From: an uncultured Candidatus Saccharibacteria bacterium
GTDB lineage: Bacteria; Patescibacteriota; Saccharimonadia; CAILAD01; BJGX01
Direction of reading: 5' to 3'
Length of the DNA stretch: 64,000 bases
NCBI GenBank assembly: GCA_964552475.1
Contig: CAZKFZ010000002.1
Location: forward strand, 70,160-134,159
The notes beneath the pieces were generated by a model. The model did no database searches, was not told where the DNA came from, and saw only the letters and a list, made by a program, of their open reading frames with translations. Position numbers and translations under genes: made by a program. Each line of letters opens with the position of its first letter. Positions within the stretch are counted from its first letter, which is position 1. Shown here piece by piece: positions 1,235 to 19,457 of the stretch.

Positions 1235-1242
1235 ACAAATTA

Positions 1243-1283: not shown

Positions 1284-1299
1284 TTTTTATACTGTAGCC

Positions 1300-1461
1300 T
1301 TAGAAAGCTTTGGTGAGTATCCAGATTGCTCCAGCAACGGCTAGAAAGAAAAGACCTAGTCCAACTGGTGATCCCCAGCTAAACCAAGAACCCCATGAAC
1401 GCCAATGTTTTTTTGACCGTTCATACCAATCTATCTGCTCTTGTGGTGTCATTTTTGCCAT
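1300..1461 (-). CDS. Small hypothetical membrane protein (53 aa), not in the ORF track
   Basis: Minus-strand ORF MAKMTPQEQIDWYERSKKHWRSWGSWFSWGSPVGLGLFFLAVAGAIWILTKAF, with a GGAG 8 nt upstream of the ATG. Preferred over the overlapping track ORF 1310..1591(+), which has no RBS. Confidence 0.3.
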   Translation of the reverse strand: MAKMTPQEQIDWYERSKKHWRSWGSWFSWGSPVGLGLFFLAVAGAIWILTKAF

Positions 1462-1663
1462 CTCTTTGACTCCTTATTTAGTTGATATTGAGTCTCAAAA
1501 TTTATGTTTGCCAGTAAGTAAGTTGTTCTTAGGAAACTTAAGCTTACTCTATAGTCTGGGCTTAATAACAAACTTAATTATAGCAAATTAACAAGCAAAG
1601 TATAAAATTAGCTGGGCTTACTCAGTATATAGAGCTGTAGTTTAATATACTATTCTTGCTAGG

Positions 1664-1849
1664 TTAACTTGTCTTAGTGAAACCAATAGTGCCAGTAACT
1701 TGAAGCACAAGACCTATAGTTAGTAATAGCATTTGTAGACTTTGTGAATCTTTCTGCATGATTCCTGTAATGATCAAGAATATTCCTGCAGCTATTAGCA
1801 TTACGTTTAATACTTTGTTACCTAAATTTGAAGATTGTTTTTTTGCCAT
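1664..1849 (-). CDS. Small hypothetical membrane protein (61 aa)
   Basis: Two hydrophobic helices. ATG preceded by aaagaaagtATG, a weak SD. Confidence 0.3.
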   Translation of the reverse strand: MAKKQSSNLGNKVLNVMLIAAGIFLIITGIMQKDSQSLQMLLLTIGLVLQVTGTIGFTKTS

Positions 1850-2039
1850 ACTTTCTTTCTTTTAATAATGCTTATGTTTATTGTAACAAATAGTATACTT
1901 GGTAGACTATAAAAAATTCAATCTTTAATTTGGCTGAGCATACAGGTCACGAACATCGCAAACAGGGGTAATGAGACACATAAATGAGACAAATGGGACA
2001 TAAAACTAGTATGTTTTGCAATTTGAGACCCAGATTTGA

Positions 2040-3026
2040 CTACCTTGACTGAATATCCTTTAAGCTAGTGCCCCCAATGCTATCGGTGTATGGATTTGGT
2101 GTTTCAACCTCAGTTGGCTGCACTGCTACAATTGTGTAAGTTTTTGAAGGATAAAGTCGAGTCTTTTTGAAAATATTTATACATTTTAGGTCCTCTTTTT
2201 TGACGTAATGTCTGAAGTAAGCATTAGCTACTATATCGGCCATCCGTATCTCAAAATACTCCTTTGAATCATAAAAATTCATACAATTTCGAATTTCATT
2301 AGTAAAGACAGCTAGATTCTCTCTAGATTTTGGATATTTGTTAAATCGTTTTATGTATGGATGATTACTTTTCCATGTGTCTAGATGGATGAACCCGCCA
2401 CCATGATATGACAAATGCCACAAAGCGGTCCTCATTGTGTCCAACCAGTAGCGCATATGAATCGGCTTTTCTATAAATCCTTTGTCCATGCGTATCGTTA
2501 GTTCACCAAGTTCACGATCGAATCCCTTGTTTACGCTCCAAATAATAGAGTCGTTAATTGCACCAAATATCGTGCTAGCTAGAAGTTCGATTTTGAGAAG
2601 TGTTTTAAGGCTGCGCTTTGATAGCCATTTGGACATATCAACGTAAAATTGTGCAATTTCGTAATATTCTTTGCCATCTTTTCTATACTGGTCAGCGCCT
2701 TCAAGCAGTTGTCGCACATTCTTAGTTCTCTGGTTTTTAACAGTTTCGACATTGAAATCAATCAAGGGGGTAGCAAATACATGGTGCTTCGTGCCGTGGA
2801 CATTGTTGTTAAGCAAGATATTTTCAGCAAAATACATCAATTGTTCATCATTGAGCAGCCAGCCTTTTACTTCGCCGTCTTTCTTGCATTCTTCGGGTAA
2901 ATCGCTTTCCCACTTTTCAAACACACTTTTTAATTTATCGTACTTCTTGGGACGTACATACACGGCAGCAAACATGCCCATATGCTCGTCCTTGAAGCTG
3001 CCCGAGTCATCTATTCCAACAATCAT
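2040..3026 (-). CDS. Hypothetical protein, 328 aa (N-terminal MIVGIDDSGS, possibly DUF3800/RNase-H-like fold)
   Basis: Long ORF. Start overlaps the stop of the upstream gene by TAATG, indicating translational coupling. Family not recognised confidently. Confidence 0.5.
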   Translation of the reverse strand: MIVGIDDSGSFKDEHMGMFAAVYVRPKKYDKLKSVFEKWESDLPEECKKDGEVKGWLLNDEQLMYFAENILLNNNVHGTKHHVFATPLIDFNVETVKNQRTKNVRQLLEGADQYRKDGKEYYEIAQFYVDMSKWLSKRSLKTLLKIELLASTIFGAINDSIIWSVNKGFDRELGELTIRMDKGFIEKPIHMRYWLDTMRTALWHLSYHGGGFIHLDTWKSNHPYIKRFNKYPKSRENLAVFTNEIRNCMNFYDSKEYFEIRMADIVANAYFRHYVKKEDLKCINIFKKTRLYPSKTYTIVAVQPTEVETPNPYTDSIGGTSLKDIQSR

Positions 3027-3661
3027 TAGGGATATTCAGCGCCAATCACGTTTAGAAGAAGCTCAGTATTTACGTCCTTTGATTCAAGCAAGAAATCTAC
3101 TGTAATCCGTGTAACATCTGGCAAATAGCTTAAAAGCGAATCGCCGTTAACGATCCAGTTACGATTGCTTCCGTCATGCTCAAACACTTTATGAGACTTA
3201 GCTTTCTCCAAAATATCTTCTATCGATCCACTGTGCCCAGGCCTAAATTCAAAAGAAAGTACCGCTTTTCCGGGCTCTACAGTGAGCCTATGTGCCAGAT
3301 AGTCCCTGAAGCCGCTCCACACCAACTCTAAGATTTCGCCGTTGCCAGAAAGACCAAGATCTAACCCACTACTTTGGATAAACTTCATAAAATGGACGAA
3401 AGTTTCAGTTTCATTTATAGCACTGCCATCTGGATTGAACTTATCGGGTCTTTTGACGCAGTAATAAGTTTTGCCTAAGAAATTAAGTGCTGTAAAAAGA
3501 CTTAATGCTACTACAATGTTGCCACCGCCAATATTATCAGATGTCCCTTTATGTTGAAGGTTATGCTTTCTTATGTAGATGAAAGCCTTAAGATCATTTT
3601 GAACGCCCGCAATTCGGTCTAGGATATCTTCGGTACATTTTTCTACAACAGGGTCTCTCAT
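3026..3661 (-). CDS. Hypothetical protein, 211 aa
   Basis: Long ORF, first gene of the coupled pair, downstream of a 410-nt divergent intergenic region. No recognisable motifs. Confidence 0.45.
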   Translation of the reverse strand: MRDPVVEKCTEDILDRIAGVQNDLKAFIYIRKHNLQHKGTSDNIGGGNIVVALSLFTALNFLGKTYYCVKRPDKFNPDGSAINETETFVHFMKFIQSSGLDLGLSGNGEILELVWSGFRDYLAHRLTVEPGKAVLSFEFRPGHSGSIEDILEKAKSHKVFEHDGSNRNWIVNGDSLLSYLPDVTRITVDFLLESKDVNTELLLNVIGAEYP

Positions 3662-4071
3662 AAGCTAACTATAAAACTTAATATGACTGTCATCAAGCAA
3701 ACTATACAGTGGTGATTGGAATGACGACAGTTTTAGCGAGTTTGTCAGAGTTTGTTAGACTTCATTGTAAAATAGTGTTCTGATATTGCAATTGCCGAGC
3801 CTGCTTGATATTCTGAAGTTACGCATAAGCGTTACATTAACAATCTAGCTACACAGTTCCAAGGAGTTAACCGAAGCTCAACATATGAGCGCCCCCGAGG
3901 AATTGGTCATAATCTTATCCCAACGGATACGACAAGAGGTATATTTCACACTGCACCAGCAGTCGTAGGAAACGGCCCAGTTATGATTAATTCTTTAGTG
4001 GTGCTCTTTTATTTGTCTTGAATTGTGCCCAATTGAATTTGTGGTTGGTATAACTACAAAGGAGAAGAGGT

Positions 4072-5403
4072 ATGGATGCTTCAAAGCAGCTCAAGATTGA
4101 GCAAGTTAAAATATCAAAACTAAAAGCAGCAACTTACAACCCGCGCAGCTGGAGTGAGGAGACCAAAAAGCAACTGGCCGATAGCATCAGTCAGTTCGGA
4201 TTGGTAGATCCACTGCTGGTAAACGGTGCCGAGAACCGCAAAAACGTAGTAATTGGTGGGCATTTTAGACTACACATAGCTAAAGAACTCGGGTACAAAG
4301 AAGTACCTGTGGTTTATTTGGATATTCCAGACGAAGCGCGTGAGAAAGAGCTGAACCTTCGTTTAAACAAAGCGCTCGGCGAGTGGAACTGGGAAATGTT
4401 GTCCGAGTTCGACGAAACACTGCTGGCTGATGTTGGCTTTAGTAGTGAAGAGTTGGACACCATCTTCGATATTGAACTTGAGGAGTCGGATACCTTTGAT
4501 CTGCAAAAAGAACTGAAAAAACTGGATATCAAGTCAATTGAAGCCAAAAAAGGCTATGTGTACAAGCTTGGTGATTCAAGGCTAATGATTGGTGACAGTA
4601 CTGTTGATTCTGATTTCGACAAATTAATGGATGGTCAATTGGCTGATATGTGCCTGACGGACCAGCCGTATCGGCTCTCATACACTAAGGGTGGCATCCG
4701 CCAGGGTAAGCCAACTGAGGGCTTTGGTGCTAAGCGCAACCGCAAGTATTTGGAAACTGACGAGTTACCCGAAGACTTTGTCCAGCTCTGGATGGCAAAT
4801 GTTGCCAGGCATGCCAAAGATGATTTCTCTATCATTGCCTATGAAGCGTGGCACAACATGCGTGAAATGTGGGACTGCATGTCCGAGCATTGGACCATCC
4901 GGAATATGCTCATCTGGCACGTACCGAAACGTCATCAAGGTTTTGCTGCCAAGTACAAATTCTTCAGTAAGTACGACATAGCCATGGTTGGCAGCAGCGG
5001 CACCGTGCAGTACAACCACGACGAAGAACCCGATGGCTTACAGGAGGAATATGAAGCTGCACTTTACGCCACAGTCGGTAAGCCGCAATGGGAAGGCTAT
5101 CAGAAAGGCCGCAAGTATCAGCCAAGTGACTTTGTATCGTTTCCTGCAAATGATGAAAAGAGCTCCGGCCAAGGAATAATCTTTGGTACAAAGCCACTTG
5201 AAATCCTAATCCCGTACATAAAAGTACTGACAAGACGTGACGACCTGATAGTTGAGCCCTTCGGCGGGTCAGGATCGACGCTAATTGCAGCTACTATGCT
5301 CAAACGGCGTTGTTTCATCATGGAAAAATCACCAGTTTACGCTGAAGTGATTATGAAACGATGGGAAAATCTTACTGGTCTCAAGCGGGAGAAGCTGTCG
5401 TGA
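4072..5403 (+). CDS. ParB-like nuclease N-terminal domain fused to an N4/N6 DNA methyltransferase (beta-class)
   Basis: N-terminus is ParB/Srx-like (GGHFRL). LTDQPY (motif IV-like, DPPY variant) precedes EPFGGSGSTLIAA (motif I FxGxG), typical of pfam01555 phage/plasmid MTases. SD aaaggagaag upstream. Confidence 0.7.
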   Translation: MDASKQLKIEQVKISKLKAATYNPRSWSEETKKQLADSISQFGLVDPLLVNGAENRKNVVIGGHFRLHIAKELGYKEVPVVYLDIPDEAREKELNLRLNKALGEWNWEMLSEFDETLLADVGFSSEELDTIFDIELEESDTFDLQKELKKLDIKSIEAKKGYVYKLGDSRLMIGDSTVDSDFDKLMDGQLADMCLTDQPYRLSYTKGGIRQGKPTEGFGAKRNRKYLETDELPEDFVQLWMANVARHAKDDFSIIAYEAWHNMREMWDCMSEHWTIRNMLIWHVPKRHQGFAAKYKFFSKYDIAMVGSSGTVQYNHDEEPDGLQEEYEAALYATVGKPQWEGYQKGRKYQPSDFVSFPANDEKSSGQGIIFGTKPLEILIPYIKVLTRRDDLIVEPFGGSGSTLIAATMLKRRCFIMEKSPVYAEVIMKRWENLTGLKREKLS

Positions 5404-5828
5404 GCCGAAATAAGAAAGCAGATAAGAAACAATTGTTAGCGAAGCTCGCGGAAACACCGATTACTGAGGCAGCCTGTAAGAAAGTTGGGCTGCCTCGCTC
5501 AACCTATTACCGCTGGCGGAAAGAAGATCCGGATTTCGCTGAGCAGTGTGATGAAGTTATTGAGCTTAGTGTTGGCCGGATTAATGATCTGGCAGAATCA
5601 CAGCTTATCAACGCCATTAAAAACCAGAACATGTCAGCTATAACATTCTGGCTTAAGCATCATCACCGAAGCTATAGGAATCGACTGGAAGTCGATGCAC
5701 GATTACAACCGGTGCAACAAGAGCTGACACCGGAGCAAACTGAAATGGTAAATAAAGCCCTGCAGCTGGCAGGCATAACAACATTAAACGAGGAGCAAGA
5801 AAATGATGAACGATCAATTAAAGCGTAA
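5400..5828 (+). CDS. Phage terminase small subunit-like HTH protein
   Basis: GLPRSTYYRWRKEDPDF HTH typical of TerS. Probable GTG start at 5400 overlapping the upstream TGA (track ORF begins at 5361). Directly precedes and overlaps TerL. Confidence 0.55.
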   Translation: MSRNKKADKKQLLAKLAETPITEAACKKVGLPRSTYYRWRKEDPDFAEQCDEVIELSVGRINDLAESQLINAIKNQNMSAITFWLKHHHRSYRNRLEVDARLQPVQQELTPEQTEMVNKALQLAGITTLNEEQENDERSIKA

Positions 5829-7311
5829 GTTATTTACCGACAAACTAATCCGGGCAGAGGTAACGGCAAATAGCCACCTATACTTCTTCTCGACCTATTT
5901 TGCTAATTATATGGAGTATGAGATATCTGATCTGCACCGGGAGCTGTTTGCACTCACCGAGCAAGATGAAACACCACTGGCAGTCGTGATGGCGTTTCGT
6001 GGTTCTGCCAAGTCAACGATTATGACTATGAGCTACCCTATTTGGGCGGTAGTTGGTCGGCAGCAAAAGAAATTCGTGGTTATTGCTAGTCAAACACAGT
6101 ATCAGGCGCGGGTTCACTTAACTAACATCAAGCGGGAGCTGGAAAGCAACGAGTTGCTGGCAAACGATCTAGGGCCGTTTGTAGAACAGCGTGAAGAGTG
6201 GGGGTCAACCTCACTCTTCATCCCTAAGTACAACGCCCGTATCACCGCTATATCTACTGAGCAGAGCGTTCGTGGTATCCGTCACGGCTCTAAGCGTCCA
6301 GACCTGATCATTGCTGATGACGTCGAAGATGCACAGTCTGTGAAGACCCGTGAGGGCCGTAACAAGACCTTTGACTGGTATACAGGTGAGATCATCCCCG
6401 CGGGCGATATCAACACAAAAAGAATAGTTGTTGGTAACTTGCTTCACGAAGATTCGCTACTGATGCGTTTAAAGGATTTGATCGAACGTGACGAGATAGA
6501 TGGCTCTTTCATTGAATGGCCAATTGTAAAGCAAGGCAAAAGCACATGGCCGGGTAAATTTCCTGATAAAGCTGTCGTCAAGCGAATGGAGCGCAGTGTT
6601 GCCAGCCGTATCGCATGGGAGCGTGAATACATGCTTAATTTGGTTGCTGACGACGATCAGATTATCGACCGCAAAATGATCCAATACTACGACGAGCTGC
6701 CAACACAACTGCGTGGCCAATATACTCGTATTATCATTGGCGTCGACCTTGCTATATCTGAAAACGATAAAGCTGACTTTACTGCCATTCTAATACTGGA
6801 TATACGTGGCTCTGGCGACAGACAGCGGATGTATATAAGGCCAAATATCGTAAACAAGCGGCTGTCATTTCCCGATACGGTTAGCTTGCTTAAGGAGACT
6901 AGCGACAACTTTCGATACCCGAAGCTTTACATCGAACAGACAGCCTATCAAGCGGCAGTGGTACAACAACTCACTGCTGATGGGCTTGATGTGCAAGGTG
7001 TGACGCCGCACTCCGACAAGCGTTCACGACTTAATATGGTAGCTGACAAAATTCAACGTGGTGTCATCCTGTTTCCGCGTATGGGCGCAGAGGAACTAAT
7101 TACACAGTTGATTGGGTTTGGTGTAGAGAAACATGACGACCTAGTAGATGCCTTAACGACTGCTGTTCTTGAGTTTATACGTGATGATCGCCGTGGAGGC
7201 ACAGTAACAATAGGCAGAGCCTCGGATATTTTTGGTGATAGGTATCCTGGATCAAACCGTCGCAGAAGTGGCCGTGATTATTGGAATCGACGGTTAGATG
7301 ATTGGGATTAG
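5803..7311 (+). CDS. Phage terminase large subunit
   Basis: Walker A-like RGSAKST and Walker B IIADDVED in the N-terminal ATPase. C-terminal RNase-H-like nuclease (IGVDLAISEND...D). 502 aa. Confidence 0.8.
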   Translation: MMNDQLKRKLFTDKLIRAEVTANSHLYFFSTYFANYMEYEISDLHRELFALTEQDETPLAVVMAFRGSAKSTIMTMSYPIWAVVGRQQKKFVVIASQTQYQARVHLTNIKRELESNELLANDLGPFVEQREEWGSTSLFIPKYNARITAISTEQSVRGIRHGSKRPDLIIADDVEDAQSVKTREGRNKTFDWYTGEIIPAGDINTKRIVVGNLLHEDSLLMRLKDLIERDEIDGSFIEWPIVKQGKSTWPGKFPDKAVVKRMERSVASRIAWEREYMLNLVADDDQIIDRKMIQYYDELPTQLRGQYTRIIIGVDLAISENDKADFTAILILDIRGSGDRQRMYIRPNIVNKRLSFPDTVSLLKETSDNFRYPKLYIEQTAYQAAVVQQLTADGLDVQGVTPHSDKRSRLNMVADKIQRGVILFPRMGAEELITQLIGFGVEKHDDLVDALTTAVLEFIRDDRRGGTVTIGRASDIFGDRYPGSNRRRSGRDYWNRRLDDWD

Positions 7312-7338
7312 GCAACTTCTGGCAAGTGGTAGAGCTGT

Positions 7339-8118
7339 CTACTTAGCTTCGGCTTGTTTTAGTTTTACCACTTCGTCGCGGTGGTTCCAGAAAATACAGT
7401 AGTCACAGTCTGGATTTGCATCTGGGATTATATCGGCGTCCAGAGTCTGTTTCAGTTTCAAAATAGTAGGCTCGACCCACTCATCATTGCCGTCGTGTTC
7501 AATCACGTGGATGTCAAAGTTAATGCAGGCATCAAAAGACTCTTCGTTGGGCTTGCCGGTGCAGTAAACCCAGTATGCTTTGTTAGACATTTTGAGGCCG
7601 TTCTTACGTAGAAGCCATTGGTATACCTCCAACTGACGTCGATAACCATTATGATAAGATGCATCGCCTAGTTCTGTTACAGGGTCTGCTTTAGCCGTAG
7701 CCTTGTAGTCAGCAACGATATACTCACCATTACCGCTGATCCATAGGTCGTCGATAGCACCGGTGATAATCAATTTAGTAGGCTCATGTAAATACTGCAC
7801 GCCCTTGAAGTTCTCGCGCCATTCATCAATCATTTCGTGTGGTGCGGGCTTTGCATCTACGCCAAACTGATCAAGTAGAGGATGCGAACCACCGTTTTCT
7901 CGCAATGTATCAAACTCATTTTTTAGCATGGAATCTACAGCTGAGTTCAATGCAAATGGGAACCCAGGTGGACGACCAAGTCCAAGTCGACGATCAATAT
8001 AGAAGCACCGTGGACACTCCATAAATAAGTCTATTTTTGACCGTGAAAGTTTGAAAGGTTTATCGTCGGTAGGCGAGTATATATTTCTTGTTCTTTTGCC
8101 TTTGTAATATTCGCTCAT
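7339..8118 (-). CDS. Cas4-like / RecB-family PD-(D/E)XK nuclease with Cys cluster
   Basis: N-terminal KLSRSKIDLFMECPRCFY, a central D...VADYK core, QLEVYQW (QxxxY) and C-terminal CDYCIFW. Start overlaps the MTase stop by ATGA. Confidence 0.7.
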   Translation of the reverse strand: MSEYYKGKRTRNIYSPTDDKPFKLSRSKIDLFMECPRCFYIDRRLGLGRPPGFPFALNSAVDSMLKNEFDTLRENGGSHPLLDQFGVDAKPAPHEMIDEWRENFKGVQYLHEPTKLIITGAIDDLWISGNGEYIVADYKATAKADPVTELGDASYHNGYRRQLEVYQWLLRKNGLKMSNKAYWVYCTGKPNEESFDACINFDIHVIEHDGNDEWVEPTILKLKQTLDADIIPDANPDCDYCIFWNHRDEVVKLKQAEAK

Positions 8119-11100: not shown

Positions 11101-11507
11101 GCTCTTGGGCCTAAAACATAAGAGTAGCGCCTTGGATTTGAGAAAATTTTTTTAATCTTACCTTTAATTTCATCTATGGAAATTGAGATATATGAAAGTC
11201 TCCATTCTTGTTCACCGGTGGTCGACACATAAGCAACTAATGCTTTGTCAATGTTGTTCTCAGCCATTAGCTTGAATGTGTCTGTCGCCAACTTAACACG
11301 CACAGAAACAGTTGCATCGTGCGTAATGACCAATACATTATTAAATCTATTGTCTAAAAAATGACCTATATTGTCAGCTTTTTTAATGAGAGACGAAGAA
11401 TGTTGAATATTTTTAGATTCTGAATATAGCTCAGTTTCAACGAGCCCTGTTACAAGTTGCTTAAATGTCTGTAAATTGAATTCCTTTGATAGATCATCTC
11501 TATTCAT
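8115..11507 (-). CDS. Large gamma-class N6-adenine DNA methyltransferase (Eco57I / type IIG / BREX-PglX-like), 1130 aa
   Basis: FYTPREIVDYMV, motif I DPACGSGAFP, motif IV VIANPPYI. Long N-terminal region and a ~400-aa C-terminal putative TRD. No obvious PD-ExK nuclease motif in the N-terminus. Confidence 0.8.
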   Translation of the reverse strand: MNRDDLSKEFNLQTFKQLVTGLVETELYSESKNIQHSSSLIKKADNIGHFLDNRFNNVLVITHDATVSVRVKLATDTFKLMAENNIDKALVAYVSTTGEQEWRLSYISISIDEIKGKIKKIFSNPRRYSYVLGPRAKTATPFNYLIAKGAVSTLEELQERFSLEVVNNAFYKEIARLYDRLVGAKNIQKELKYPGSNEDCQEFAVRLIGRIIFCWFLREKRSIKGIPLIPNAVLSLEASRKPEYFKSVLEPLFFEVLNKEMDARLSKFKQAPYDLIPYLNGGLFSDDIIDYYGDDSSPKTITDKWLLDLFDLLERYNFTVDENTSIDTELSIDPEMLGRVFENLLARINPETGETVRKSTGSFYTPREIVDYMVSNSLIEFLSAMTIVPESKLSALVSYDLEDDIGNKLNEEEVELVLGALSELTVIDPACGSGAFPIGMLQKILHIISILDPDAKWWLNKQLQSITSLELKREFDNKSANYIRKLGIINKSIFGVDIQPIATEISRLRCFLTLIVDEEIDDNAKNRGIRPLPNLDFKIMQGNSLIEKYGKIKLFDDELIYGDHNFDVEATSNLVLRQADLQREYLSLHSTNMLTPIKQNQLQSQLKSINKQLIQLKGRQNVPNNNQGLFDKFSKSEKTRTLLIQLHKDYFACTDKIVKRKIQSKINDTEWELIEETLKENNQHQEIDRLSKFKMSKVKPFFIWQLNFPDVFENGGFDIVIANPPYISINALSKTNDTFAKYLKSSDESVGNYCGVNLHSTPISRKTYPPKPNLYAFFFARATRLAKPKGCISFIVPQNLLTAKDLDVVRYLVSETQTLNRLLVVDDMVFKGDTATSTVPTSSLVLFVINEKNSEYTALFTKSKLDHLNKINYQPVNKEELIKSINNWSIHTLGGPQKSILSKYMSAEIADIYYNHAKSVNYFGSSFYFDVGFTLNNSKILKSVDDENKYYKLFNSKGMKDVILLTEDFYPKDKAAIQLTKNSQGYVVLEQEFKIVWSVKNPKCFSFTDEDIVFPMGRAAIIASKNKKEVIYLWLLLNSAINKYMFELLLKSPGEKDYLLPISSVKTFFRIPKISPERGKIKNELINIGERIIGNSTDDAGELWDKIDILAGKLYDLTDKELQLIEASTK

Positions 11508-11512
11508 AGCGC

Positions 11513-14500
11513 CTATTTAAGCTCCTCGGTAAGTATGAGCATACTAGACTGGTTTCTTGACGCATCGGCTGCACGTCGAATTTTAGCTATATATTGAATT
11601 GGTATACGTTCGCTAAGGTGCTTGTATGCCTCATCTGGGGCATCACCTATAACAATATTCCTTATTAACTTTAGCTCTGAGTCTGCGAGTGCGTCTAGGT
11701 CGTAAATGGATTCAATTAAATCCTGACAATAATTTTTCTGACTTGAACTTTCTAGTTTTTCGGAAAGAATCTTCAATTTTGCAATTGCTTCTTGACGACC
11801 TTTATCTGGGACTGATTTGTGAGTATTTGTTTTGTATAAATGATCTCGAACTTCTTGGAATAATTTATGGTAATTTTCTGATACTTCCTGTCCCTGCAGA
11901 TTTTTATCCGCTTCAAACAATTCCAGCGCTAATTCAGTGTTAATATACTCAGTTTCTTCTGAACCAACTTGCTTCAGGCAAAAGACACTTGTCTCACCAC
12001 GTTTACCATAGAGAACAACACCCTTTGTTGCATTATTACTCTTTCTTCCCACCTTAGATTTATTGACTGCTTCTTGCTCTACTAAATCTAGAATTTCTTT
12101 ATTGTGTTTGAGAGAGTTCCAAAGGTTGCGGAATTTATTAATTGAACTTTCTGATTCTTCCTGCGACTTCGCGTCGTTAAATTTATCCGAGTAGTAGGCT
12201 TTCAGCTCTTCCTCGCTCGTGAGCTTTTTAGTGTCATCACCCAATAGAGCATTAAAGATGTGTACCTTTATAGTAGATATGGATTTGGTATGTGTTTCTT
12301 CTTCACCGATTTCACTCGGGAAGAAGTTGTAAATGAATAGTTCTTCATAAACCTTTTTATTTACACGATTGATTCGCCCAATACGCTGGATCACTCGAGT
12401 CGGGTTATAGGGGATGTCGTAGTTATATACGCAATCTGCTCTGTGTAAGTTATATCCTTCTGAAATTGCGTCAGTAGCAAGTAAAATTTGAAATTGATCT
12501 TCTTGCTCATCCACTGGCAGACCGGCGTCAAAGTTTTTGGCAATAATCTTTTTGGTAGATTGATTAGCTTCTTGTCCTGAATAGGTAATTATCTTGTCTT
12601 TTAGTTCAGGATCTTTTTTGAGTTGATCTGCAATGTAATAAATTGTGTCGGTAAACTCACTGAAGACGATAACCTTACCATCAGTAGTTTTCATTTTACT
12701 TTTCAAATGTTCAACAAAAGTATCGAGCTTAGGATCGACTTCTTTTGTGCTTTCATCCTCAAACCAAAGTTTCTGTATTTGTCTTAGGATTTCTCCGTCC
12801 TTGCGTAATAGTTCTATGTAGTCAGGTTGTAAATATTTAGCCTTAATAATTCGGAAATCTTTAGAATTATTTTCCGAAAGTTGTTTTTGTAACTCTTCTA
12901 TTGGGTCGGTTTCAGACAGATTTTCATCGATTTCGATTTCATCCATCAGATCATCAGGTTCAGGTATATCAAGTTTTTTGGAAATTGGCACTCCGCCAAC
13001 TTTCTCATACCAATTGATCACTAATTGGTTCGAGATGATCATTTTATTTAGAGTGCTCCTGAAAGCATTCTTTGAGCTTTCAAATCTTCTAACCAGTAGG
13101 TGGCGCATGAACTTAGAAACGTTCGATTGACCCTGCTCAAGTCTTTGAGCAATGTCATCTTCGTCATCAAATTCTTTGGCTAGTTCCTTTTTGTAGTCTT
13201 CACGACCCTCATCAGTAAAGTACTTGGTCGGCTGGTATCGAGCAGCCAGGTAATGCTCGCCCGGAACAGCTTGATCAGATTCTGGGTAGATTGTATATAA
13301 AGTATTTTTGTAAAGATCAGTTATTTCCTGCAAAGGATATTCGATGTTGGCAGGCTCGTTAACTTTGGGAAAATGAATACCCTGAGTTTTTAAGTCTTCT
13401 CGGTACTCATCAATTCTCTCGAGATCCAATCGAGAACGTCTTATTACTGCGTCTTCAATCAAGCGGCGCAGTTCTTTAGCAAGTGCCTCAGCCTTTTGCT
13501 TGATCTTTTCAGAATCCGATTTTTTATCTTTTCGCAGTTTTGAATATTCACGAATTAGTTCACGGAATGCCATACCTAGATTTTCAGCGGTTTTTAACGT
13601 TGCGGCGCCAGGAATTTGGAAGAGCTTGATTAAGGCGTATACGTCTTTTGGGTCATTATTAAATGGGGTAGCTGAAAGTAGCAATACCTTATGACCAATT
13701 GCTAATTGGTGAATATCGGTATAATCATATGTCAATTCGTTTCTAAACCTATGAGCTTCATCGATTACAATTAATTTCGGTCGCTTGTCTTCTTTATAAT
13801 ATTGGAAACATTCATTAATTTTGCCCCGACTCCAGACTTTCCCAGTAAATCCAAATTTGTCCATGTACTCCTGCCATTGGTCGCATAAATGAGGAGGTGC
13901 AATTATAACTGTGTAAAGGTCATCACGTTTGTATAAGTTATATGCAATAGTTGAGCCGATAATAGATTTGCCTAAACCAACAACATCAGCAACAATCGCG
14001 CCGTTGTAGTCGTCAATTTTTGCTATGCCTTCCTTGATGGCGTCGATTTGATATTTAAGATTACTGTATAAGCCTCCGGTTATCTTGTAGGGCATATGGA
14101 CATCGCTGTCTTCTAAGTCGCCAAAATATTCACGAAGAACCTTAATATATACGTGATAAGGGCTAGGTAATTTATATGGCCAAGTTGATTTCTTGAATCT
14201 ATCAACAATTTCTGGAGCATCGGACCTGTCAATTAAGGTGACAGCTCTTCCGTCGTTCCATTCTTTCTCAAAAGTATCGCTCCACTCTTTAATGTAACTT
14301 GGTTCAGTAAACATATGGTTCTTTTCACCCTGTTTGCGTAATCCGCTAGTTGTCAGGTTGCTTGAACCCATGATTACTAAGCCGTTAGGGAATAAAGAGC
14401 CTATGTCTGTGTCTTTCTTGAGTCTAAATACATAATATTTAGAATGCTCTTCTTCAGATGACATTTTTATTTCTAGAGTGCCGTTTTTAAGTTTTTCGAA

Positions 14501-14866
14501 TAAGATGTCCAGAGTTTCACTGCTAGCAACCTCATCAAAATCCCTTAGGCTATTAATGCTAGCGATTGAAGTTTCAATAAAGTTATCAATTTTTTCTGAT
14601 CTGGTGGCACTTGCATAGCTACCAATTTTTGATTTGAAGCTAGTCCCGTCCTGATAGTTTTTGCCAAGTTCACTTATAACCTTAGGATCCAACTCCATAC
14701 CAACAAGAATTCTAATGGGTATGTCTTTTATGAGATCCTTAATTTCTTCGAATCCGCTAAAGAAGAAATACCCAACGGCGATGTCGATTGATTCACAGTG
14801 TGGAGCAATCTTTGCGATCTCATCAGCCAAAATTCGACTATGGTTGTCGATAATCCCACTTTGCAT
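11513..14866 (-). CDS. PLD-family nuclease domain fused to an SNF2-family helicase, 1117 aa
   Basis: N-terminal HKD motif HSKYYVF...IMGSSNLTTSGL. Helicase motifs I DVVGLGKS, II LIVIDEAHRFRN, III LLSATP, and the helicase-C block LATDAISEGYNLH...QRIGRINR. First gene of the operon, followed 5 nt later by the MTase. Confidence 0.8.
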   Translation of the reverse strand: MQSGIIDNHSRILADEIAKIAPHCESIDIAVGYFFFSGFEEIKDLIKDIPIRILVGMELDPKVISELGKNYQDGTSFKSKIGSYASATRSEKIDNFIETSIASINSLRDFDEVASSETLDILFEKLKNGTLEIKMSSEEEHSKYYVFRLKKDTDIGSLFPNGLVIMGSSNLTTSGLRKQGEKNHMFTEPSYIKEWSDTFEKEWNDGRAVTLIDRSDAPEIVDRFKKSTWPYKLPSPYHVYIKVLREYFGDLEDSDVHMPYKITGGLYSNLKYQIDAIKEGIAKIDDYNGAIVADVVGLGKSIIGSTIAYNLYKRDDLYTVIIAPPHLCDQWQEYMDKFGFTGKVWSRGKINECFQYYKEDKRPKLIVIDEAHRFRNELTYDYTDIHQLAIGHKVLLLSATPFNNDPKDVYALIKLFQIPGAATLKTAENLGMAFRELIREYSKLRKDKKSDSEKIKQKAEALAKELRRLIEDAVIRRSRLDLERIDEYREDLKTQGIHFPKVNEPANIEYPLQEITDLYKNTLYTIYPESDQAVPGEHYLAARYQPTKYFTDEGREDYKKELAKEFDDEDDIAQRLEQGQSNVSKFMRHLLVRRFESSKNAFRSTLNKMIISNQLVINWYEKVGGVPISKKLDIPEPDDLMDEIEIDENLSETDPIEELQKQLSENNSKDFRIIKAKYLQPDYIELLRKDGEILRQIQKLWFEDESTKEVDPKLDTFVEHLKSKMKTTDGKVIVFSEFTDTIYYIADQLKKDPELKDKIITYSGQEANQSTKKIIAKNFDAGLPVDEQEDQFQILLATDAISEGYNLHRADCVYNYDIPYNPTRVIQRIGRINRVNKKVYEELFIYNFFPSEIGEEETHTKSISTIKVHIFNALLGDDTKKLTSEEELKAYYSDKFNDAKSQEESESSINKFRNLWNSLKHNKEILDLVEQEAVNKSKVGRKSNNATKGVVLYGKRGETSVFCLKQVGSEETEYINTELALELFEADKNLQGQEVSENYHKLFQEVRDHLYKTNTHKSVPDKGRQEAIAKLKILSEKLESSSQKNYCQDLIESIYDLDALADSELKLIRNIVIGDAPDEAYKHLSERIPIQYIAKIRRAADASRNQSSMLILTEELK

Positions 14867-15002
14867 TTTTATTTTACAACTCCATACATAATTATCTATT
14901 CTACGCTAATTACATCTGTCATTCCATAGCTACACAATGTTTTATTTAATTTCATAATATTCCTAGCTTTTAACTAGGTTTGGCGGTACCTTGTTGCTTG
15001 CA

Positions 15003-16265
15003 ATGGAGCAAGTAACAGACATAAAATACTGCCTTTATGCTCGGAAATCGAGCGAACAAGACGAACGTCAGGCCATGTCGATAGATTCACAGCTAAAGGA
15101 GATGTTGGCGCTTGCTGCCCGTGACGGTTTGAATATAGTCGAGACCAAGCATGAAAGCCATTCAGCCAAAGAATCGGGGCGTCGGCCTGTATTTAACGAG
15201 CTGTTGGAAGATTTGAGGGCTAATAAATTCAACGGTGTACTTACATGGGCACCAGACAGGCTATCACGTAACGCTGGCGACCTAGGATCGTTAGTTGATC
15301 TAATGGACAATAATAAGCTGCAACAGATCCGCACATTCGGACAGAGCTTTCGCAATACGCCAAACGAAAAATTCTTACTAATGATTCTGTGCTCACAAGC
15401 GAAGTTAGAAAATGATAATAGAGGGGTTAATGTTAAGCGAGGTATTCGCGCCAAGTGCGAAACTGGCTGGCGACCTTGCATGCCTCCGTTAGGCTACTTT
15501 ACTAGGGGAGCAAGCGGTAAAGGTAAAGACGTTATAATTGACCAAGAGCGAGCACCTTACATCGTCCAGATGTTTGAAATGTCCGCCGAAGGCAAAGGCG
15601 GCAGACACATTCGACAGTGGTTGGAAGATAATAATGTCAAAACACGTGGCAATAAATCTATACCGTTAAGTATGATTTACCGGATATTAGGGAGTTCTTT
15701 CTACTACGGTGAGTTCGAATACCCCAGGAAAAGTGGGAAGTGGTATAAGGGTCAACACGAGCCACTTATAACCAAAGAGTTGTTTGACCAGGTGCAGATT
15801 CAGCTAACAGTACCAGTAAAGACCAAATGGGGCTCGATTCCATTCCCTTATAAGCAGTTCTTGAAATGCTACAGCTGTGGATCCAGCATTGTTGGTGAGC
15901 AGAAAACTCGGCATTATAAAAATGGCAATACGCCAACATTCACCTATTACCACTGCTCAAGACAGGTAAAGCGAGACTGCAAAGAACCATTTGCCCGCGA
16001 GCAAGACATTGCAGATGAACTAAGCTTAATGTGCAACGAATTAATTACCGACCTAACACTGCTTGAGCCAGGATTGCGCGACGCAATAGATAAGTTTACT
16101 AAGATGATGAAAGTTACTCACGAAACCTATAGCCCAGATGAAATGGTGGGCGGTTATATCAAATATGTGCTACGCGAAGGCACACTTTTCGAGAAAACTA
16201 GATTAATCCGGAACCTGAATATTAAGCTCGCATTACATGATCGCAAACTTGTAAAAATTGACTAG
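15003..16265 (+). CDS. Large serine recombinase (resolvase/integrase family)
   Basis: YARKSSEQ with the catalytic Ser near the N-terminus. C-terminal zinc-ribbon cysteines (CYSCGSS...YYHCS). The track starts at TTG 14991; ATG 15003 is more likely. Confidence 0.8.
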   Translation: MEQVTDIKYCLYARKSSEQDERQAMSIDSQLKEMLALAARDGLNIVETKHESHSAKESGRRPVFNELLEDLRANKFNGVLTWAPDRLSRNAGDLGSLVDLMDNNKLQQIRTFGQSFRNTPNEKFLLMILCSQAKLENDNRGVNVKRGIRAKCETGWRPCMPPLGYFTRGASGKGKDVIIDQERAPYIVQMFEMSAEGKGGRHIRQWLEDNNVKTRGNKSIPLSMIYRILGSSFYYGEFEYPRKSGKWYKGQHEPLITKELFDQVQIQLTVPVKTKWGSIPFPYKQFLKCYSCGSSIVGEQKTRHYKNGNTPTFTYYHCSRQVKRDCKEPFAREQDIADELSLMCNELITDLTLLEPGLRDAIDKFTKMMKVTHETYSPDEMVGGYIKYVLREGTLFEKTRLIRNLNIKLALHDRKLVKID

Positions 16266-16302
16266 TAGCTTAAAAGCTTGTGCTTGTTGCTATAATGAGG
16301 CT

Positions 16303-16743
16303 ATGAAACGCCAAACGCTGTCACGCTACGACCAAATTACCGTTGATCCTCGACACGGCGGTTACAGTGATATTAGGCTTTGGCCATGTTATATGGTGTT
16401 TAGTAGCTTAATCTTGTTTCTAGCTCCGCAGATCGGTATGTTCCTCTCAATAATGCTTGTAGGTGTTCCTTCATTTTTCATCGCTAAGAAAGTAGCGGAT
16501 ATGACGACTTCGGATGAGCCACTTGTCAGATACGACATTGAAAAGTGGGTTGATGACATGATGGCGGCAGAAGACAAAGGGTTACCGTTGCCAGCAATGG
16601 AAGCTTACGCATACATAGAGCCTATTATCGTAAAACAGAAGGTCGCCAAACAACCTGAACCGATAAGTTCTAGACCTGCTTTCAAACAGATAACGATAGC
16701 ATCTAGGATTAGAACCAAAAAACCGACTCTTCAGTCGGTTTAA
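16303..16743 (+). CDS. Hypothetical membrane protein (about 146 aa) between the recombinase and the tRNA
   Basis: ATG with a GAGG SD (track ORF begins earlier, at 16258). Two predicted TM helices. Confidence 0.35.
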   Translation: MKRQTLSRYDQITVDPRHGGYSDIRLWPCYMVFSSLILFLAPQIGMFLSIMLVGVPSFFIAKKVADMTTSDEPLVRYDIEKWVDDMMAAEDKGLPLPAMEAYAYIEPIIVKQKVAKQPEPISSRPAFKQITIASRIRTKKPTLQSV

Positions 16744-16813
16744 TAGTAAATCGATTCAGCTTCTTTATCTTGGTTAAGATTTGCACCGTACGGGTCACGT
16801 TTGGTGAAAATCG

Positions 16814-16888
16814 TGGCTGGGACGGAAGGATTCGAACCTTCGATCTCTTGAGCCAGAATCAAGCGCCTTACCACTTGGCCACGTCCCA
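16814..16888 (-). tRNA. tRNA-Gln (anticodon CTG), CCA encoded
   Basis: Hand-folded cloverleaf TGGGACG TG GCC AAGTGGTAA GGC G CTTGA TTCTGGC TCAAG AGATC GAAGG TTCGAAT CCTTC CGTCCCA G CCA. Track ORF 16740..16922(-) rejected. Confidence 0.8.
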
Positions 16889-19434: not shown

Positions 19435-19457
19435 TGAGTCTCCTCTATTTGGTAGGT

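What the first reader, a model, noticed from the sequence alone, without database searches (positions are those of the whole stretch)
1960..16888. Mosaic integrative element at tRNA-Gln with terminase small and large subunits but no virion structural genes (satellite/PICI-like or decayed prophage)
A large serine recombinase (15003-16265) sits next to the 3' end of tRNA-Gln (16814-16888), the classic integration geometry. Within about 15 kb the element carries TerS, TerL, a ParB-nuclease-domain/DNA MTase fusion, the defence-like operon, and unknown cargo. No portal, capsid or tail genes are present. Terminases without structural genes are a hallmark of phage satellites that hijack helper capsids, although a decayed prophage is equally possible. 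The terminase/ParB-MTase block is visibly GC-richer than its neighbours, which suggests modular assembly. I could not find a duplicated tRNA 3' fragment. That is expected for serine recombinases, which need only a short crossover core. The left boundary is therefore uncertain, somewhere between 1850 and 4071.
Basis: partly seen in the sequence, partly recalled or inferred. Interest (0 to 1): 0.6.

Follow-up and report, generated by a model that had tools for sequence, protein, structure and literature searches.

The report
Capsid-less terminase island at tRNA-Gln
A 14.8-kb mobile island beside a tRNA gene in a Saccharibacteria (TM7) genome carries a phage DNA-packaging motor but no virus-shell genes; it belongs to a large, conserved family that I could not find described, and it probably rides in other phages' capsids while carrying anti-phage defence genes.

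Summary
Window ~2.0-16.8 kb is an island bounded by host genes. A close relative stops being collinear at ~2003-2040, and tRNA-Gln(CTG) lies at 16814-16888. The island holds a ParB-MTase, TerS, TerL, a three-gene defence cassette, a large serine recombinase (LSR) and three unknown ORFs. It has no portal, capsid or tail genes.

It is not a one-off decayed prophage. TerL has relatives of 44-91% identity in about 100 fetched loci, where named from Saccharibacteria. These loci share the order ParB-MTase, TerS, TerL, variable cargo, LSR, then a tRNA whose 3' end faces the LSR. At least seven tRNA species are used. LSR similarity tracks the tRNA. In minimal members TerL and the LSR are 36-200 bp apart, which leaves no room for virion genes. 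The core is under strong purifying selection. The only TerL relatives followed by portal and capsid genes are at most 39% identical.

The best reading is a satellite-like island that brings its own complete terminase, uses helper capsids and holds a defence-cargo hotspot (confidence 0.55). Helper dependence, excision and packaging are not shown. PICI and cfPICI membership fails. I found no description of the family in the searchable literature. I rate it a new variant of a known kind.

The parts
425..1849 (.). Host left flank, not part of the island: amino-acid kinase 425-1234 (+), an intrinsic-terminator-like hairpin near 1253-1290, and two small membrane-protein ORFs at 1300-1461 (-) and 1664-1849 (-).
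   Evidence: PF00696 3.9e-25. All three genes are conserved in the same order in relatives L201-L203, preceded there by PPDK.
2003..2040 (.). Left junction of the island (attL region; exact crossover not resolved).
   Evidence: Nucleotide collinearity (84%) with L201, L202 and L203 runs from window 3 to about 2000-2037 and then stops. At that point the relatives carry a different segment of 60% GC. No repeat shared with the tRNA end was found.
2040..3026 (-). Left-arm cargo ORF, 328 aa, borderline DUF3800.
   Evidence: PF12686 at E 3.5e-4, 21.7 bits against a cut-off of 21. No PHROG, PADLOC or NCBIfam hit. No homologue in the other 115 terminase loci.
3026..3661 (-). Left-arm cargo ORF, 211 aa, function unknown.
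   Evidence: No family hit. 33 homologues; the two that carry a Patescibacteria label are 'Patescibacteria group bacterium', a third is labelled Magnetospirillaceae. The AF2 model is confident (pLDDT 87, pTM 0.86) but has no PDB fold match. The homologue in L207 is not in a terminase island.
4072..5403 (+). ParB_N (nuclease/CTPase-like) + N6/N4 DNA methyltransferase fusion; first gene of the conserved packaging core.
   Evidence: PF02195 4.8e-11 and PF01555 1.3e-18; phrog_498 1.4e-79. Present upstream of TerL in 70 of 77 loci with enough DNA. Against L086, pN is 0.055 and pS is 0.83.
5361..5828 (+). Small terminase subunit (TerS), an HTH-type protein. The alternative start at 5400 gives 142 aa.
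   Evidence: phrog_4044 3.3e-10 plus other TerS PHROGs; PF20901 Sf6_terminase 2.7e-4 and HTH_Tnp_1_2 1.9e-8. Present in 90 of 99 loci. pN 0.08-0.12 against pS 0.71-0.79.
5803..7311 (+). Large terminase subunit (TerL), T7-like ATPase plus RNase-H-like nuclease, intact.
   Evidence: phrog_38 2.4e-78; PF17289 and TIGR01630; best PDB match 8dgc, deposited as 'Terminase, large subunit'; NCBIfam termin_lrg_T7 5e-17. Walker A is present in 99 of 109 family members and Walker B in 102 of 109. pN 0.055-0.071 against saturated pS.
7339..8118 (-). PD-(D/E)XK (Cas4-like) nuclease. It is shared backbone with the closest relative L086 and is adjacent to the swappable cassette.
   Evidence: PF12705 4.9e-14. 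Homology between the window and L086 runs through this gene to 8119. GC is 0.442, like the core.
8115..11507 (-). Eco57I/MmeI-type (type IIG-like) N6-adenine methyltransferase, 1130 aa. Defence cargo.
   Evidence: PF07669 7e-26; PADLOC REase_MTase_IIG 8e-57, with weaker DrmMI and PglX hits. It recurs together with the SNF2 gene in L107, L169 and L185, between TerL and the LSR, and downstream of the LSR in L159.
11513..14866 (-). PLD(HKD) nuclease + SNF2 helicase, 1117 aa. Defence cargo.
   Evidence: PLDc_2, SNF2-rel_dom and Helicase_C; PADLOC 'HKD+Snf2' C3a139 3.6e-47, DrmD 1.2e-35. The cassette 8119-14893 is replaced by a type-III-like RM + DUF4391 + SNF2 cassette in L086.
15003..16265 (+). 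Large serine recombinase, the putative integrase; has the catalytic YxRxSS motif.
   Evidence: Resolvase, Recombinase and Zn_ribbon_recom; phrog_95 integrase 1.6e-62. An LSR lies downstream of TerL in 29 of 40 loci that have at least 9 kb downstream. LSR identity tracks the adjacent tRNA species: 71% against 50%.
16303..16743 (+). Right-arm ORF, 146 aa, with two predicted hydrophobic helices. Function unknown.
   Evidence: Called as a gene on Logan contig L196. No family hit. Translation.
16814..16888 (-). tRNA-Gln(CTG); right boundary (attR side). The 3' end faces the island.
   Evidence: ARAGORN; Rfam tRNA 70.4 bits. The gene is intact and near-identical to the tRNA-Gln next to trmD in L006 and L002. 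A minus-strand tRNA lies downstream of the LSR in 19 non-redundant family loci.

Best explanation
Window ~2.0-16.8 kb is an intact member of a widespread family of integrative islands; where an assembly is named, the host is Saccharibacteria.

Shown:
- The family core is ParB-MTase, TerS, TerL and a large serine recombinase (LSR).
- The islands sit with the LSR towards the 3' end of a tRNA gene.
- They contain no virion genes.
- The gap between TerL and the LSR, and both arms, act as hotspots holding interchangeable defence cargo.
- The core genes are under purifying selection.

Inferred mechanism:
1. The island stays integrated. In many members an S24 LexA/CI-type repressor, or an ImmA-type (M78) peptidase, presumably keeps it silent.
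2. On SOS induction or infection by a helper phage, the LSR excises it, together with an unidentified directionality factor.
3. TerS recognises a site on the island's own DNA. TerL cuts that DNA and pumps it into procapsids supplied by a helper phage. The ParB-like nuclease domain may assist the cutting, and the MTase domain may pre-methylate the DNA against restriction in the next host.
4. After transfer, the LSR integrates the island at the cognate tRNA locus.
5. The cargo protects the cell, and therefore the island. In this window the cargo is a PD-(D/E)XK nuclease, a type-IIG-like MTase and a PLD-SNF2 helicase.

In short, it is a phage satellite that brings its own complete terminase but steals the capsid.
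For: Family and architecture:
- TerL has 3566 homologues at E<=1e-20. The top 120 are 56-90% identical and full length, some on chromosome-sized contigs up to 1.29 Mb; the few that are named are Saccharibacteria/Saccharimonadales.
- Among the 109 TerL-bearing loci analysed (108 fetched plus the window), ParB-MTase is upstream in 70 of 77, TerS in 90 of 99, and an LSR is downstream in 29 of 40 with at least 9 kb of downstream DNA.
- The TerL-LSR gap ranges from overlapping or 36 bp up to 8.6 kb. Minimal islands such as L137, L095, L100, L102-104, L148, L172 and L193 leave no room for structural genes.

Cargo: the gap holds defence-type genes, including the MTase+SNF2 pair, type III RM, reverse transcriptase, Sie-like DUF4352, and NucS-like and GIY-YIG nucleases.

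No structural genes:
- No portal, capsid or tail cluster recurred in the all-against-all clustering of any locus with TerL of at least 44% identity. Downstream genes were profile-searched only for the window, L117 and part of L132 (PHROGs) and two L155 genes (tblastn); all were negative.
- TerL relatives of at most 39% identity are followed by portal (1e-97) and major head protein.

Selection: pN is 0.055-0.07 against pS of at least 0.75 for TerL and ParB-MTase. ATPase motifs are kept in at least 91% of members.

Integration:
- A tRNA lies downstream of the LSR in 19 non-redundant loci, always on the minus strand, covering Gln-CTG, Gln-TTG, Asn, Ser-CGA, Ser-GGA, Glu and Trp.
- LSR pairs at the same tRNA are 71% identical on average, against 50% for different tRNAs.
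- Direct repeats of the tRNA 3' end flank L179 (21 nt) and L182 (69 nt).

Mobility and presence/absence:
- The trmD/tRNA-Gln locus is occupied in the window and in L137. The same tRNA site is unoccupied in L002, L005, L006 and L032, next to trmD, and in L015.
- A core 96% identical over 5.7 kb sits in different flanks in L082 and L084.
- Two islands lie 28 kb apart on one contig.

Regulation: an S24 LexA/CI-like repressor is called or clustered in 13 loci, and an M78/ImmA peptidase occurs in others.

Precedent: defence hotspots in satellites are known for P4 (PMC9122126).
Against: - No helper phage has been identified.
- There is no evidence of excision, circular forms or encapsidation.
- No replication module (primase or Rep) was recognised in any member, although several conserved left-arm ORFs remain unannotated.
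- The window's island itself lacks the S24 repressor that many relatives have.
- No att repeats are detectable in the window.
- A satellite TerL must dock on a foreign portal. Every satellite with TerL that I could find described (cfPICI, MulchRoom/MiniFlayer) also carries its own portal and capsid (PMC10085698, PMC10690885).
- Divergence between the window and L137 is similar for TerL (58%) and TrmD (60%). Long vertical residence at this site is therefore also compatible with the data.
Confidence: 0.55

Rival explanations
1. Domesticated or defensive terminase module. The island is an LSR-borne defence island, and ParB-MTase/TerS/TerL are kept because they act against invading phages rather than to package the island. 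They might cut or mis-package phage concatemers, or act as a decoy for phage portals. The methylase would serve the host.
For: The island is densely loaded with defence genes on both sides of the core. The core is under purifying selection, so it is useful to something. No replication or capsid-remodelling genes were found. The core's GC tracks host GC across loci, which suggests long residence.
Against: TerS and TerL keep all the features of a working packaging enzyme and stay linked to an integrase and a tRNA site. No PADLOC model covers such a system; TerS and TerL themselves were not scanned against PADLOC. Known satellite TerS interference is a by-product of self-packaging. Near-identical cores in different flanks indicate that the unit itself moves.
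Confidence: 0.15
2. Split prophage or GTA-like system. The packaging and integration modules are here, while the head and tail genes are encoded elsewhere in the same small genome.
For: Cannot be excluded. Only about 64 kb of this genome and 10-kb flanks of the other loci were visible. GTAs and some defective phages do have dispersed loci (own knowledge).
Against: The remaining 47 kb of the window are housekeeping genes. The DNA left of the window is host by synteny. The island is present or absent as a discrete unit and occupies at least seven different tRNA sites, which is unlike a fixed domesticated GTA. Saccharibacteria genomes are about 1 Mb, which leaves little room (own knowledge).
Confidence: 0.1
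3. An integrative element that uses its terminase for a helper-independent route. For example, it might generate defined linear DNA that is released and taken up by natural transformation, or exported in vesicles.
For: Saccharibacteria are naturally competent (own knowledge, not tested here). No helper is known. Island sizes vary widely, from about 6.6 to 18 kb, which is awkward for a single capsid size.
Against: There is no precedent for terminase function without a portal and procapsid, because the TerL ATPase is portal-stimulated (own knowledge). There is no supporting sequence evidence.
Confidence: 0.08
4. A one-off decayed prophage. A temperate phage integrated at tRNA-Gln, lost its structural genes by deletion, and the defence operon was inserted later.
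For: ParB-MTase/TerS/TerL is a typical start of a phage late region (ParB-MTase fusions are known in prophages, PMC3089641). TerL abuts a convergent cassette of different GC.
Against: The same capsid-less order recurs in dozens of divergent loci, including members with TerL and the LSR 36-200 bp apart. All core genes are intact and strongly selected. No full-length phage with this TerL clade (at least 44% identity) was found among 29 IMG/VR and 80 metagenome loci.
Confidence: 0.04

Closest known systems
PICIs (phage-inducible chromosomal islands, including SaPIs)
   Same: Chromosomal islands of about 7-18 kb with an integrase at one end and a repressor module (in many family members). They carry their own TerS to redirect packaging, lack structural and lysis genes, and carry accessory or defence cargo (definition in PMC10085698).
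   Different: This island has a large serine integrase where PICIs typically have a tyrosine one. No primase-replicase and no capsid-morphogenesis gene were found. It carries TerL and a ParB-MTase, which PICIs do not. The host is a CPR bacterium.
cfPICIs (capsid-forming PICIs) and the Streptomyces satellites MulchRoom/MiniFlayer
   Same: Satellites that encode both TerS and TerL, often with an HNH nuclease (PMC10085698, PMC10690885).
   Different: Those elements pair TerL with their own portal, major capsid protein, protease and head-tail connectors. None of these is present here or in any family member examined.
PLEs of Vibrio cholerae, and serine-recombinase VEIMEs (marine virion-encapsidated integrative mobile elements)
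   Same: Satellites integrated by a large serine recombinase. Some VEIMEs carry TerS, RM or Abi cargo (PMC9618062).
   Different: There is no sequence relationship. PLEs integrate into VCR repeats, not tRNA loci (own knowledge). For VEIMEs the authors presume that the large terminase comes from the helper.
P4-like satellites and P2 phages with defence hotspots
   Same: A conserved backbone with a fixed intergenic hotspot where unrelated anti-phage systems are swapped in and out (PMC9122126). Here the hotspot lies between TerL and the LSR, and the window and L086 carry different cassettes.
   Different: The backbone genes are unrelated. P4 has no terminase and remodels P2 capsids with Sid (own knowledge and PMC10690885).
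Temperate phage packaging modules (ParB-like nuclease/MTase + TerS + T7-type TerL)
   Same: Gene order and families match the start of a phage late operon. The nearest true phages (L108-L111) have TerL 33-39% identical.
   Different: In phages, TerL is followed by portal, protease and MCP. Here it is followed by cargo or directly by the integrase.

Membership tests
PICI (SatelliteFinder definition, PMC10085698) | Integrase at one end of the island | tested here: met
   The LSR at 15003-16265 lies next to the tRNA end. Serine and tyrosine recombinases are treated as exchangeable in that scheme.
PICI (SatelliteFinder definition, PMC10085698) | Regulation module (AlpA/MerR/Stl-type) | tested here: inconclusive
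   No regulator was recognised in the window's island. An S24 LexA/CI-like repressor is present in 13 related loci, and an M78/ImmA peptidase in others.
PICI (SatelliteFinder definition, PMC10085698) | Primase-replicase module | tested here: not met
   No primase, helicase or Rep hit in the window's island by Pfam, PHROGs or NCBIfam, nor in the conserved accessory ORFs of relatives that were scanned.
PICI (SatelliteFinder definition, PMC10085698) | Capsid-morphogenesis gene | tested here: not met
   No head-related PHROG or Pfam hit other than the terminases.
PICI (SatelliteFinder definition, PMC10085698) | Small terminase subunit | tested here: met
   ORF 5361-5828 hits several TerS PHROGs, best 3.3e-10. 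It is conserved in 90 of 99 loci.
PICI (functional definition) | Induction and packaging by a helper phage | not testable with these tools
   This needs read data, VLP sequencing or experiments.
cfPICI | TerL together with portal, MCP, protease and head-tail adaptor/connector (9-11 core components) | tested here: not met
   Only TerS and TerL are present. The portal/MCP search was negative here but positive in control phage L108.
Functional prophage (Caudoviricetes) | Portal, capsid, tail and lysis genes within the integrated unit | tested here: not met
   None lie between the host flanks at about 2.0 and 16.8 kb. None lie in the rest of the window. None were found in the family loci examined.
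Large serine recombinase integrases | N-terminal resolvase catalytic domain + recombinase domain + zinc-ribbon domain | tested here: met
   PF00239 1.5e-20, PF07508 7.4e-16, PF13408 8e-5. The YARKSS catalytic motif is visible in the translation.
Large serine recombinase integrases | Defined attL/attR with a short common core | tested here: inconclusive
   The junctions are bracketed (about 2003-2040, and 16744-16813 or within the tRNA). No significant shared core was found.
Phage large terminase (T7-type) | Walker A/B ATPase plus C-terminal RNase-H-like nuclease, full length | tested here: met
   phrog_38 2.4e-78 over residues 13-497; PF17289; NF033889 T7-type; PDB 8dgc. Motifs.
DISARM class 1 (for the cargo cassette) | DrmA + DrmB (DUF1998) core together with DrmD/DrmMI/DrmC | tested here: not met
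   Only DrmD-like (1.2e-35, far below the NCBIfam cut-off) and DrmMI-like (4e-19) partial hits. No DrmA or DrmB gene. The best PADLOC model is the candidate 'HKD+Snf2'.

The most novel reading that the evidence does not exclude
Saccharibacteria, and perhaps other CPR bacteria, harbour a phylum-wide and so far undescribed class of phage satellites. These are integrated by tRNA-directed large serine recombinases. They encode a complete terminase holoenzyme (TerS + TerL, with a ParB-nuclease/MTase) but no portal or capsid. They would therefore hijack helper procapsids purely at the motor-portal interface, and they would be the main vehicles of defence-system exchange in these ultra-small epibionts.
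Probability: 0.45. Interest if true: 0.8.

Novelty: new variant of a known kind. Interest (0 to 1): 0.62.

Why it matters
Mobile elements and phage biology of CPR/Patescibacteria are almost unknown. I found no report of a phage satellite in Saccharibacteria or Patescibacteria in the searchable literature.

If the satellite reading is right, this family would fill the gap between two known types: PICIs, which carry TerS only, and cfPICIs, which carry the terminase plus the whole capsid.

It would also be a natural system in which a foreign TerL must work on a helper's portal. And it would supply many serine integrases that appear to track tRNA loci (seven tRNA species among 19 loci here). That pairing seems unusual to me (own knowledge), and such integrases are useful as genome-engineering tools.

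Independently of mechanism, the TerL-LSR gap is a defined hotspot. It could be mined for new defence systems in reduced genomes.

Tried and rejected
- **att repeats in the window.** An exact or up-to-3-mismatch search with the tRNA 3' 29-mer, shared k-mers of 10 nt or more between 1200-4100 and 16200-16960, a Smith-Waterman alignment against shuffles, and the repeat finder all gave nothing above chance. Two weak resemblances to the tRNA 3' end, at 1932-1955 and 1996-2041, were examined by eye. I dropped them because they score below the shuffle background.
- **Empty site in close relatives.** The genome contigs relatives are too divergent on the far side of the tRNA to give a base-precise attB. 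The 85%-identity relative gives only the left junction, because its contigs end about 1.2 kb further on.
- **Same-sample Logan contigs.** They are 100% identical fragments of the window. They break inside the tRNA and at 3791-3820, but the breaks are uninformative unitig ends.
- **Circular or excised forms.** None of the 115 loci has terminal direct repeats.
- **Known RNA families.** Rfam found only the tRNA in the island and in the conserved right-end segment of L082.
- **The right-end motif GGTC..GGAAC..GGTC**, seen in relatives, is absent from the window.
- **Structural genes downstream of TerL in atypical loci.** L117 and L132 gave no structural PHROGs. The genes in L155 are purK and purM.
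- **Literature.** Eight searches found no description of terminase + serine-recombinase islands in Saccharibacteria or Patescibacteria. The library is incomplete, so this is only absence of evidence.
- **DISARM and BREX membership of the cargo** was rejected because core genes are missing and scores fall below the cut-offs.

Full report
**1. What is in the window.**

ORF listing, tRNA scan and profile searches give the following map.

- 425-1234 (+): amino-acid kinase.
- 1300-1461 (-) and 1664-1849 (-): two small membrane-protein ORFs.
- 2040-3026 (-): borderline DUF3800 ORF.
- 3026-3661 (-): unknown 211-aa ORF.
- 4072-5403 (+): ParB_N + N6/N4 methyltransferase fusion.
- 5361-5828 (+): TerS.
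- 5803-7311 (+): TerL (phrog_38 2.4e-78).
- 7339-8118 (-): PD-(D/E)XK nuclease.
- 8115-11507 (-): Eco57I/type-IIG-like methyltransferase.
- 11513-14866 (-): PLD + SNF2 helicase.
- 15003-16265 (+): large serine recombinase (LSR).
- 16303-16743 (+): 146-aa ORF with hydrophobic helices.
- 16814-16888 (-): tRNA-Gln(CTG).

After the tRNA come SfLAP, trmD, a DAHP synthase, a KH protein, rpsP and smc.

Nothing in the island matches a portal, capsid, tail or lysis family. The rest of the window, 17-64 kb, is housekeeping: Mur ligase, Obg, YceG, FtsA, enolase, AlaRS, MnmA, IscS, TatD and MetRS.

The packaging genes are at 0.45-0.47, the two large cargo genes at 0.35-0.38, and the host at 0.397.

**2. 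Host and boundaries.**

TrmD places the window in Saccharibacteria. The best genome hit is 74% identical (an unclassified 'uncultured bacterium' bin), and most of the next-best hits are MAGs labelled Candidatus Saccharibacteria.

Relatives are collinear with window 29.2 to 17.7 kb. Several have tRNA-Gln immediately after trmD (L002, L005, L006, L032). Beyond the tRNA, none shares anything with window 1-16.8 kb. In L002 and L006 the tRNA is followed by membrane and transporter genes, with no recombinase or terminase. Those sites are unoccupied.

The left boundary comes from a closer relative, whose amino-acid kinase is 85% identical (L201 = GCA_964481235.1, plus L202 and L203). It shares PPDK, the kinase and both small ORFs with the window at 84% nucleotide identity, up to window position about 2000-2037. 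It then continues with an unrelated 60%-GC segment.

The island is therefore about 2.0-16.8 kb, or 14.8 kb, and it includes the DUF3800 and 211-aa ORFs. By synteny, the DNA left of the window start is host DNA (PPDK and others).

No att repeat is detectable.

**3. The island belongs to a large family.**

TerL has 3566 database homologues at E<=1e-20. The top 120 are 56-90% identical and full length, and several lie on chromosome-sized contigs; the few with a name are Saccharibacteria/Saccharimonadales.

Known phages in GenBank are all below 30% identity.

I fetched 4 contexts of a homologue that is 83% identical (P0008), 1 of a homologue that is 90% identical (P0002), 29 IMG/VR loci and 80 metagenome loci. 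I called ORFs and clustered all proteins. Of the 109 loci with TerL:

- ParB-MTase is upstream in 70 of 77.
- TerS is upstream in 90 of 99.
- An LSR lies downstream on the same strand in 29 of the 40 loci that have at least 9 kb of downstream DNA.

The TerL-LSR distance ranges from overlapping or 36-200 bp (L095, L100, L102-104, L137, L148, L159, L172, L193) up to 8.6 kb.

The intervening genes are nearly always defence-like.

- The same MTase + PLD/SNF2 pair as in the window occurs in L107, L169 and L185.
- A type-III-like RM with DUF4391 and SNF2 occurs in L086, and a related RM cassette (N6_N4 methylase, PD-(D/E)XK nuclease and two large unannotated ORFs) in L105.
- A reverse-transcriptase trio occurs in L093, L099, L147 and L156.
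- A DUF4352 Sie-like protein also occurs.
- NucS-like, GIY-YIG/DUF4357 and DUF4268 proteins also occur.

Left arms often start with an S24 LexA/CI-type repressor (13 loci) or an M78/ImmA peptidase, and sometimes include an HNH nuclease.

No structural module recurs among the loci whose TerL is at least 44% identical to the window's. The genes downstream of TerL in the atypical loci L117 and L132 gave no structural PHROG. In L155 they are purK and purM.

By contrast, the relatives with at most 39% identity (L108-L111) have TerL followed by portal (phrog_2662, 1e-97), protease and major head protein. The method therefore does detect virions when they are present.

**4. The core is functional, not decaying.**

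Between the window and its closest relatives (L086, L087), nonsynonymous differences are 5.5-7% for TerL and ParB-MTase and 8-12% for TerS. Synonymous sites are saturated, with pS 0.71-0.83.

Walker A (FRGS[AG]KS) is present in 99 of 109 members and Walker B (DLIIxDD[VIL]E) in 102 of 109.

All four core genes in the window have family-typical lengths. A one-off decayed prophage is therefore very unlikely.

**5. Integration and mobility.**

In 19 non-redundant loci a tRNA follows the LSR. It is always on the opposite strand, with its 3' end facing the LSR. Seven tRNA species are involved. The LSR-to-tRNA distance is 116-250 bp in the tight cases and larger where right-arm cargo intervenes.

LSR pairs that sit at the same tRNA are 71% identical on average. 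Pairs at different tRNAs are 50% identical. This fits recombinase-determined site choice, although host phylogeny is a possible confounder.

L179 and L182 are flanked by perfect direct repeats of 21 nt and 69 nt. Each repeat includes the tRNA 3' end.

In the tRNA-Asn group, the last ~210 bp before the tRNA are conserved. They contain a degenerate second copy of the tRNA-proximal flank plus the first ~25 nt of the tRNA, with an alignment score of 27 against 9.9±1.7 for shuffles. This points to crossover within the 3' part of the tRNA.

L137 carries a minimal island at exactly the window's chromosomal locus, tRNA-Gln(CTG)/trmD/KH/rpsP. It consists of an S24 repressor, two small ORFs, ParB-MTase, TerS, TerL and the LSR. 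L002 and L006 are closer to the window by TrmD identity, yet they lack the island.

L082 and L084 share a core that is 96% identical over 5.7 kb, with identical TerL protein. Their cargo differs and so do the genes beyond tRNA-Asn.

One 258-kb contig carries two islands 28 kb apart.

The window and L086 share 4072-8119 and 14893-15199 but carry different cassettes in between. This defines the swapped segment in the window as 8119-14893.

**6. Mechanism.**

The shown facts are:

- an LSR-bearing unit that is present or absent at tRNA loci;
- a selected TerS/TerL/ParB-MTase module;
- no virion genes;
- cargo hotspots.

The most economical inference is a satellite life cycle:

1. The island is repressed, by S24 or ImmA-type regulators in many members.
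2. The LSR excises it.
3. The island's own terminase recognises and packages the island DNA into helper procapsids.
4. The island is injected into a new cell and integrates at the cognate tRNA.

Under this model the MTase protects the DNA and the cargo benefits both host and island.

None of excision, helper dependence or encapsidation has been shown. No replication module was recognised. The window's island lacks a recognisable repressor. I put this reading at 0.55.

The rivals are:

- a defensive or domesticated terminase module (0.15);
- a split prophage or GTA with structural genes elsewhere (0.10);
- a helper-independent export route (0.08);
- a one-off decayed prophage (0.04).

**7. Comparison with known systems.**

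By the SatelliteFinder definition (PMC10085698), PICIs have an integrase, a regulator, a primase-replicase, a capsid-morphogenesis gene and TerS. The window meets two of the five, or three at family level. It is PICI-like in logic but not a member.

TerL is a cfPICI marker. However, cfPICIs and the Streptomyces satellites MulchRoom and MiniFlayer always combine TerL with their own portal and capsid. None is present here.

PLEs and some marine VEIMEs use serine recombinases, but they are unrelated. For VEIMEs the authors presume that the large terminase is supplied by the helper.

The cargo hotspot mirrors the P2/P4 defence hotspots (PMC9122126).

Eight literature searches found no description of such islands in Saccharibacteria or Patescibacteria. 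The library is incomplete.

**8. Verdict.**

The finding is real, and its interpretation is supported and sharpened. It is a new variant of a known kind: a satellite-like integrative island that carries a terminase but no capsid, and sits next to a tRNA (integration inferred to be LSR-mediated). It represents a widespread family in a phylum whose mobilome is barely charted.

Interest is 0.62. The ceiling is set by the untested helper dependence. The floor is set by the robust, reproducible family architecture and by the integrases that appear to track tRNA sites.

Noticed in passing
window 18388-19461 (-); also 16950-17612 (-): A DAHP synthase gene (PF00793 1e-54; local GC about 0.44-0.47 in 1-kb windows) sits between the KH-protein gene and trmD, inside the otherwise conserved rpsP-KH-trmD cluster. 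No Saccharibacteria relative fetched has it at that position. A lone aromatic-amino-acid pathway gene in a CPR genome suggests HGT. The SfLAP gene between trmD and tRNA-Gln is also absent from L002.
   Followed up: partly
L201:11191-12398 (also L202 and L203), the equivalent of window ~2003-2040: At the same left junction, the closest relative carries an unrelated 60%-GC segment with a 264-aa ORF, against a host GC of 0.43. All three assemblies break about 1.2 kb further on. The site looks like a hotspot that takes different insertions. The composition resembles Actinobacteria, the usual hosts of Saccharibacteria.
   Followed up: partly
L082:19686-19879, L084:10395-10587, L125, L134, L135, L137:12870-12993, L129, L180: A pair of same-strand motifs, GGTC-N1-2-GG(G)AAC-N1-3-GGTC, lies 100-180 bp apart just inside the island's right end. 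The proximal copy is 20-40 nt from the tRNA 3' end. There are 23 hits in 1.4 Mb, nearly all at this position, and they occur at two different tRNAs (Asn and Gln). This could be a recombinase, RDF or packaging site. The motif is absent from the window. No Rfam family matches.
   Followed up: partly
L093, L099, L147, L156 (between TerL and the LSR); RT also in L106, L143, L144: A recurrent cargo trio: a reverse transcriptase (RVT_1 3.6e-14), a ~115-aa helical protein and a ~310-aa unknown protein. It may be a DRT- or retron-like defence system specific to these islands.
   Followed up: no
window 3026-3661 (-): The 211-aa ORF has only 33 homologues; the few that are named are mostly 'Patescibacteria group bacterium'. 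Its AlphaFold model is confident (pLDDT 87, pTM 0.86) but has no Foldseek match in the PDB (best E = 1). It may have an unmatched fold. The homologue in L207 is outside any terminase island.
   Followed up: partly
L179:239-259 / 18161-18181 and L182:1706-1774 / 16622-16690 (plus 1552-1570): Perfect direct repeats containing the tRNA 3' end bracket composite islands of 17.9 and 14.9 kb. L182 has two nested remnants, which suggests successive integrations at tRNA-Trp. L179 carries a second LSR and ParB-MTase fragments, so it may be a tandem array.
   Followed up: partly
23 family loci, e.g. L082, L086, L137, L174: The ParB-MTase/TerS/TerL block is GC-richer than the distal flanks in 21 of 23 loci, by a mean of +3.5 points. 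At the same time it tracks host GC from 0.37 to 0.53. The GC contrast seen in the window is therefore a family trait and not a sign of recent arrival.
   Followed up: yes
L150, L155, L092/L093 left ends: In a sub-family, a 537-aa serine recombinase lies on the opposite strand at the left end, before the repressor, instead of downstream of TerL. In L155, TerL is followed within a few kb by the host genes purK and purM.
   Followed up: partly
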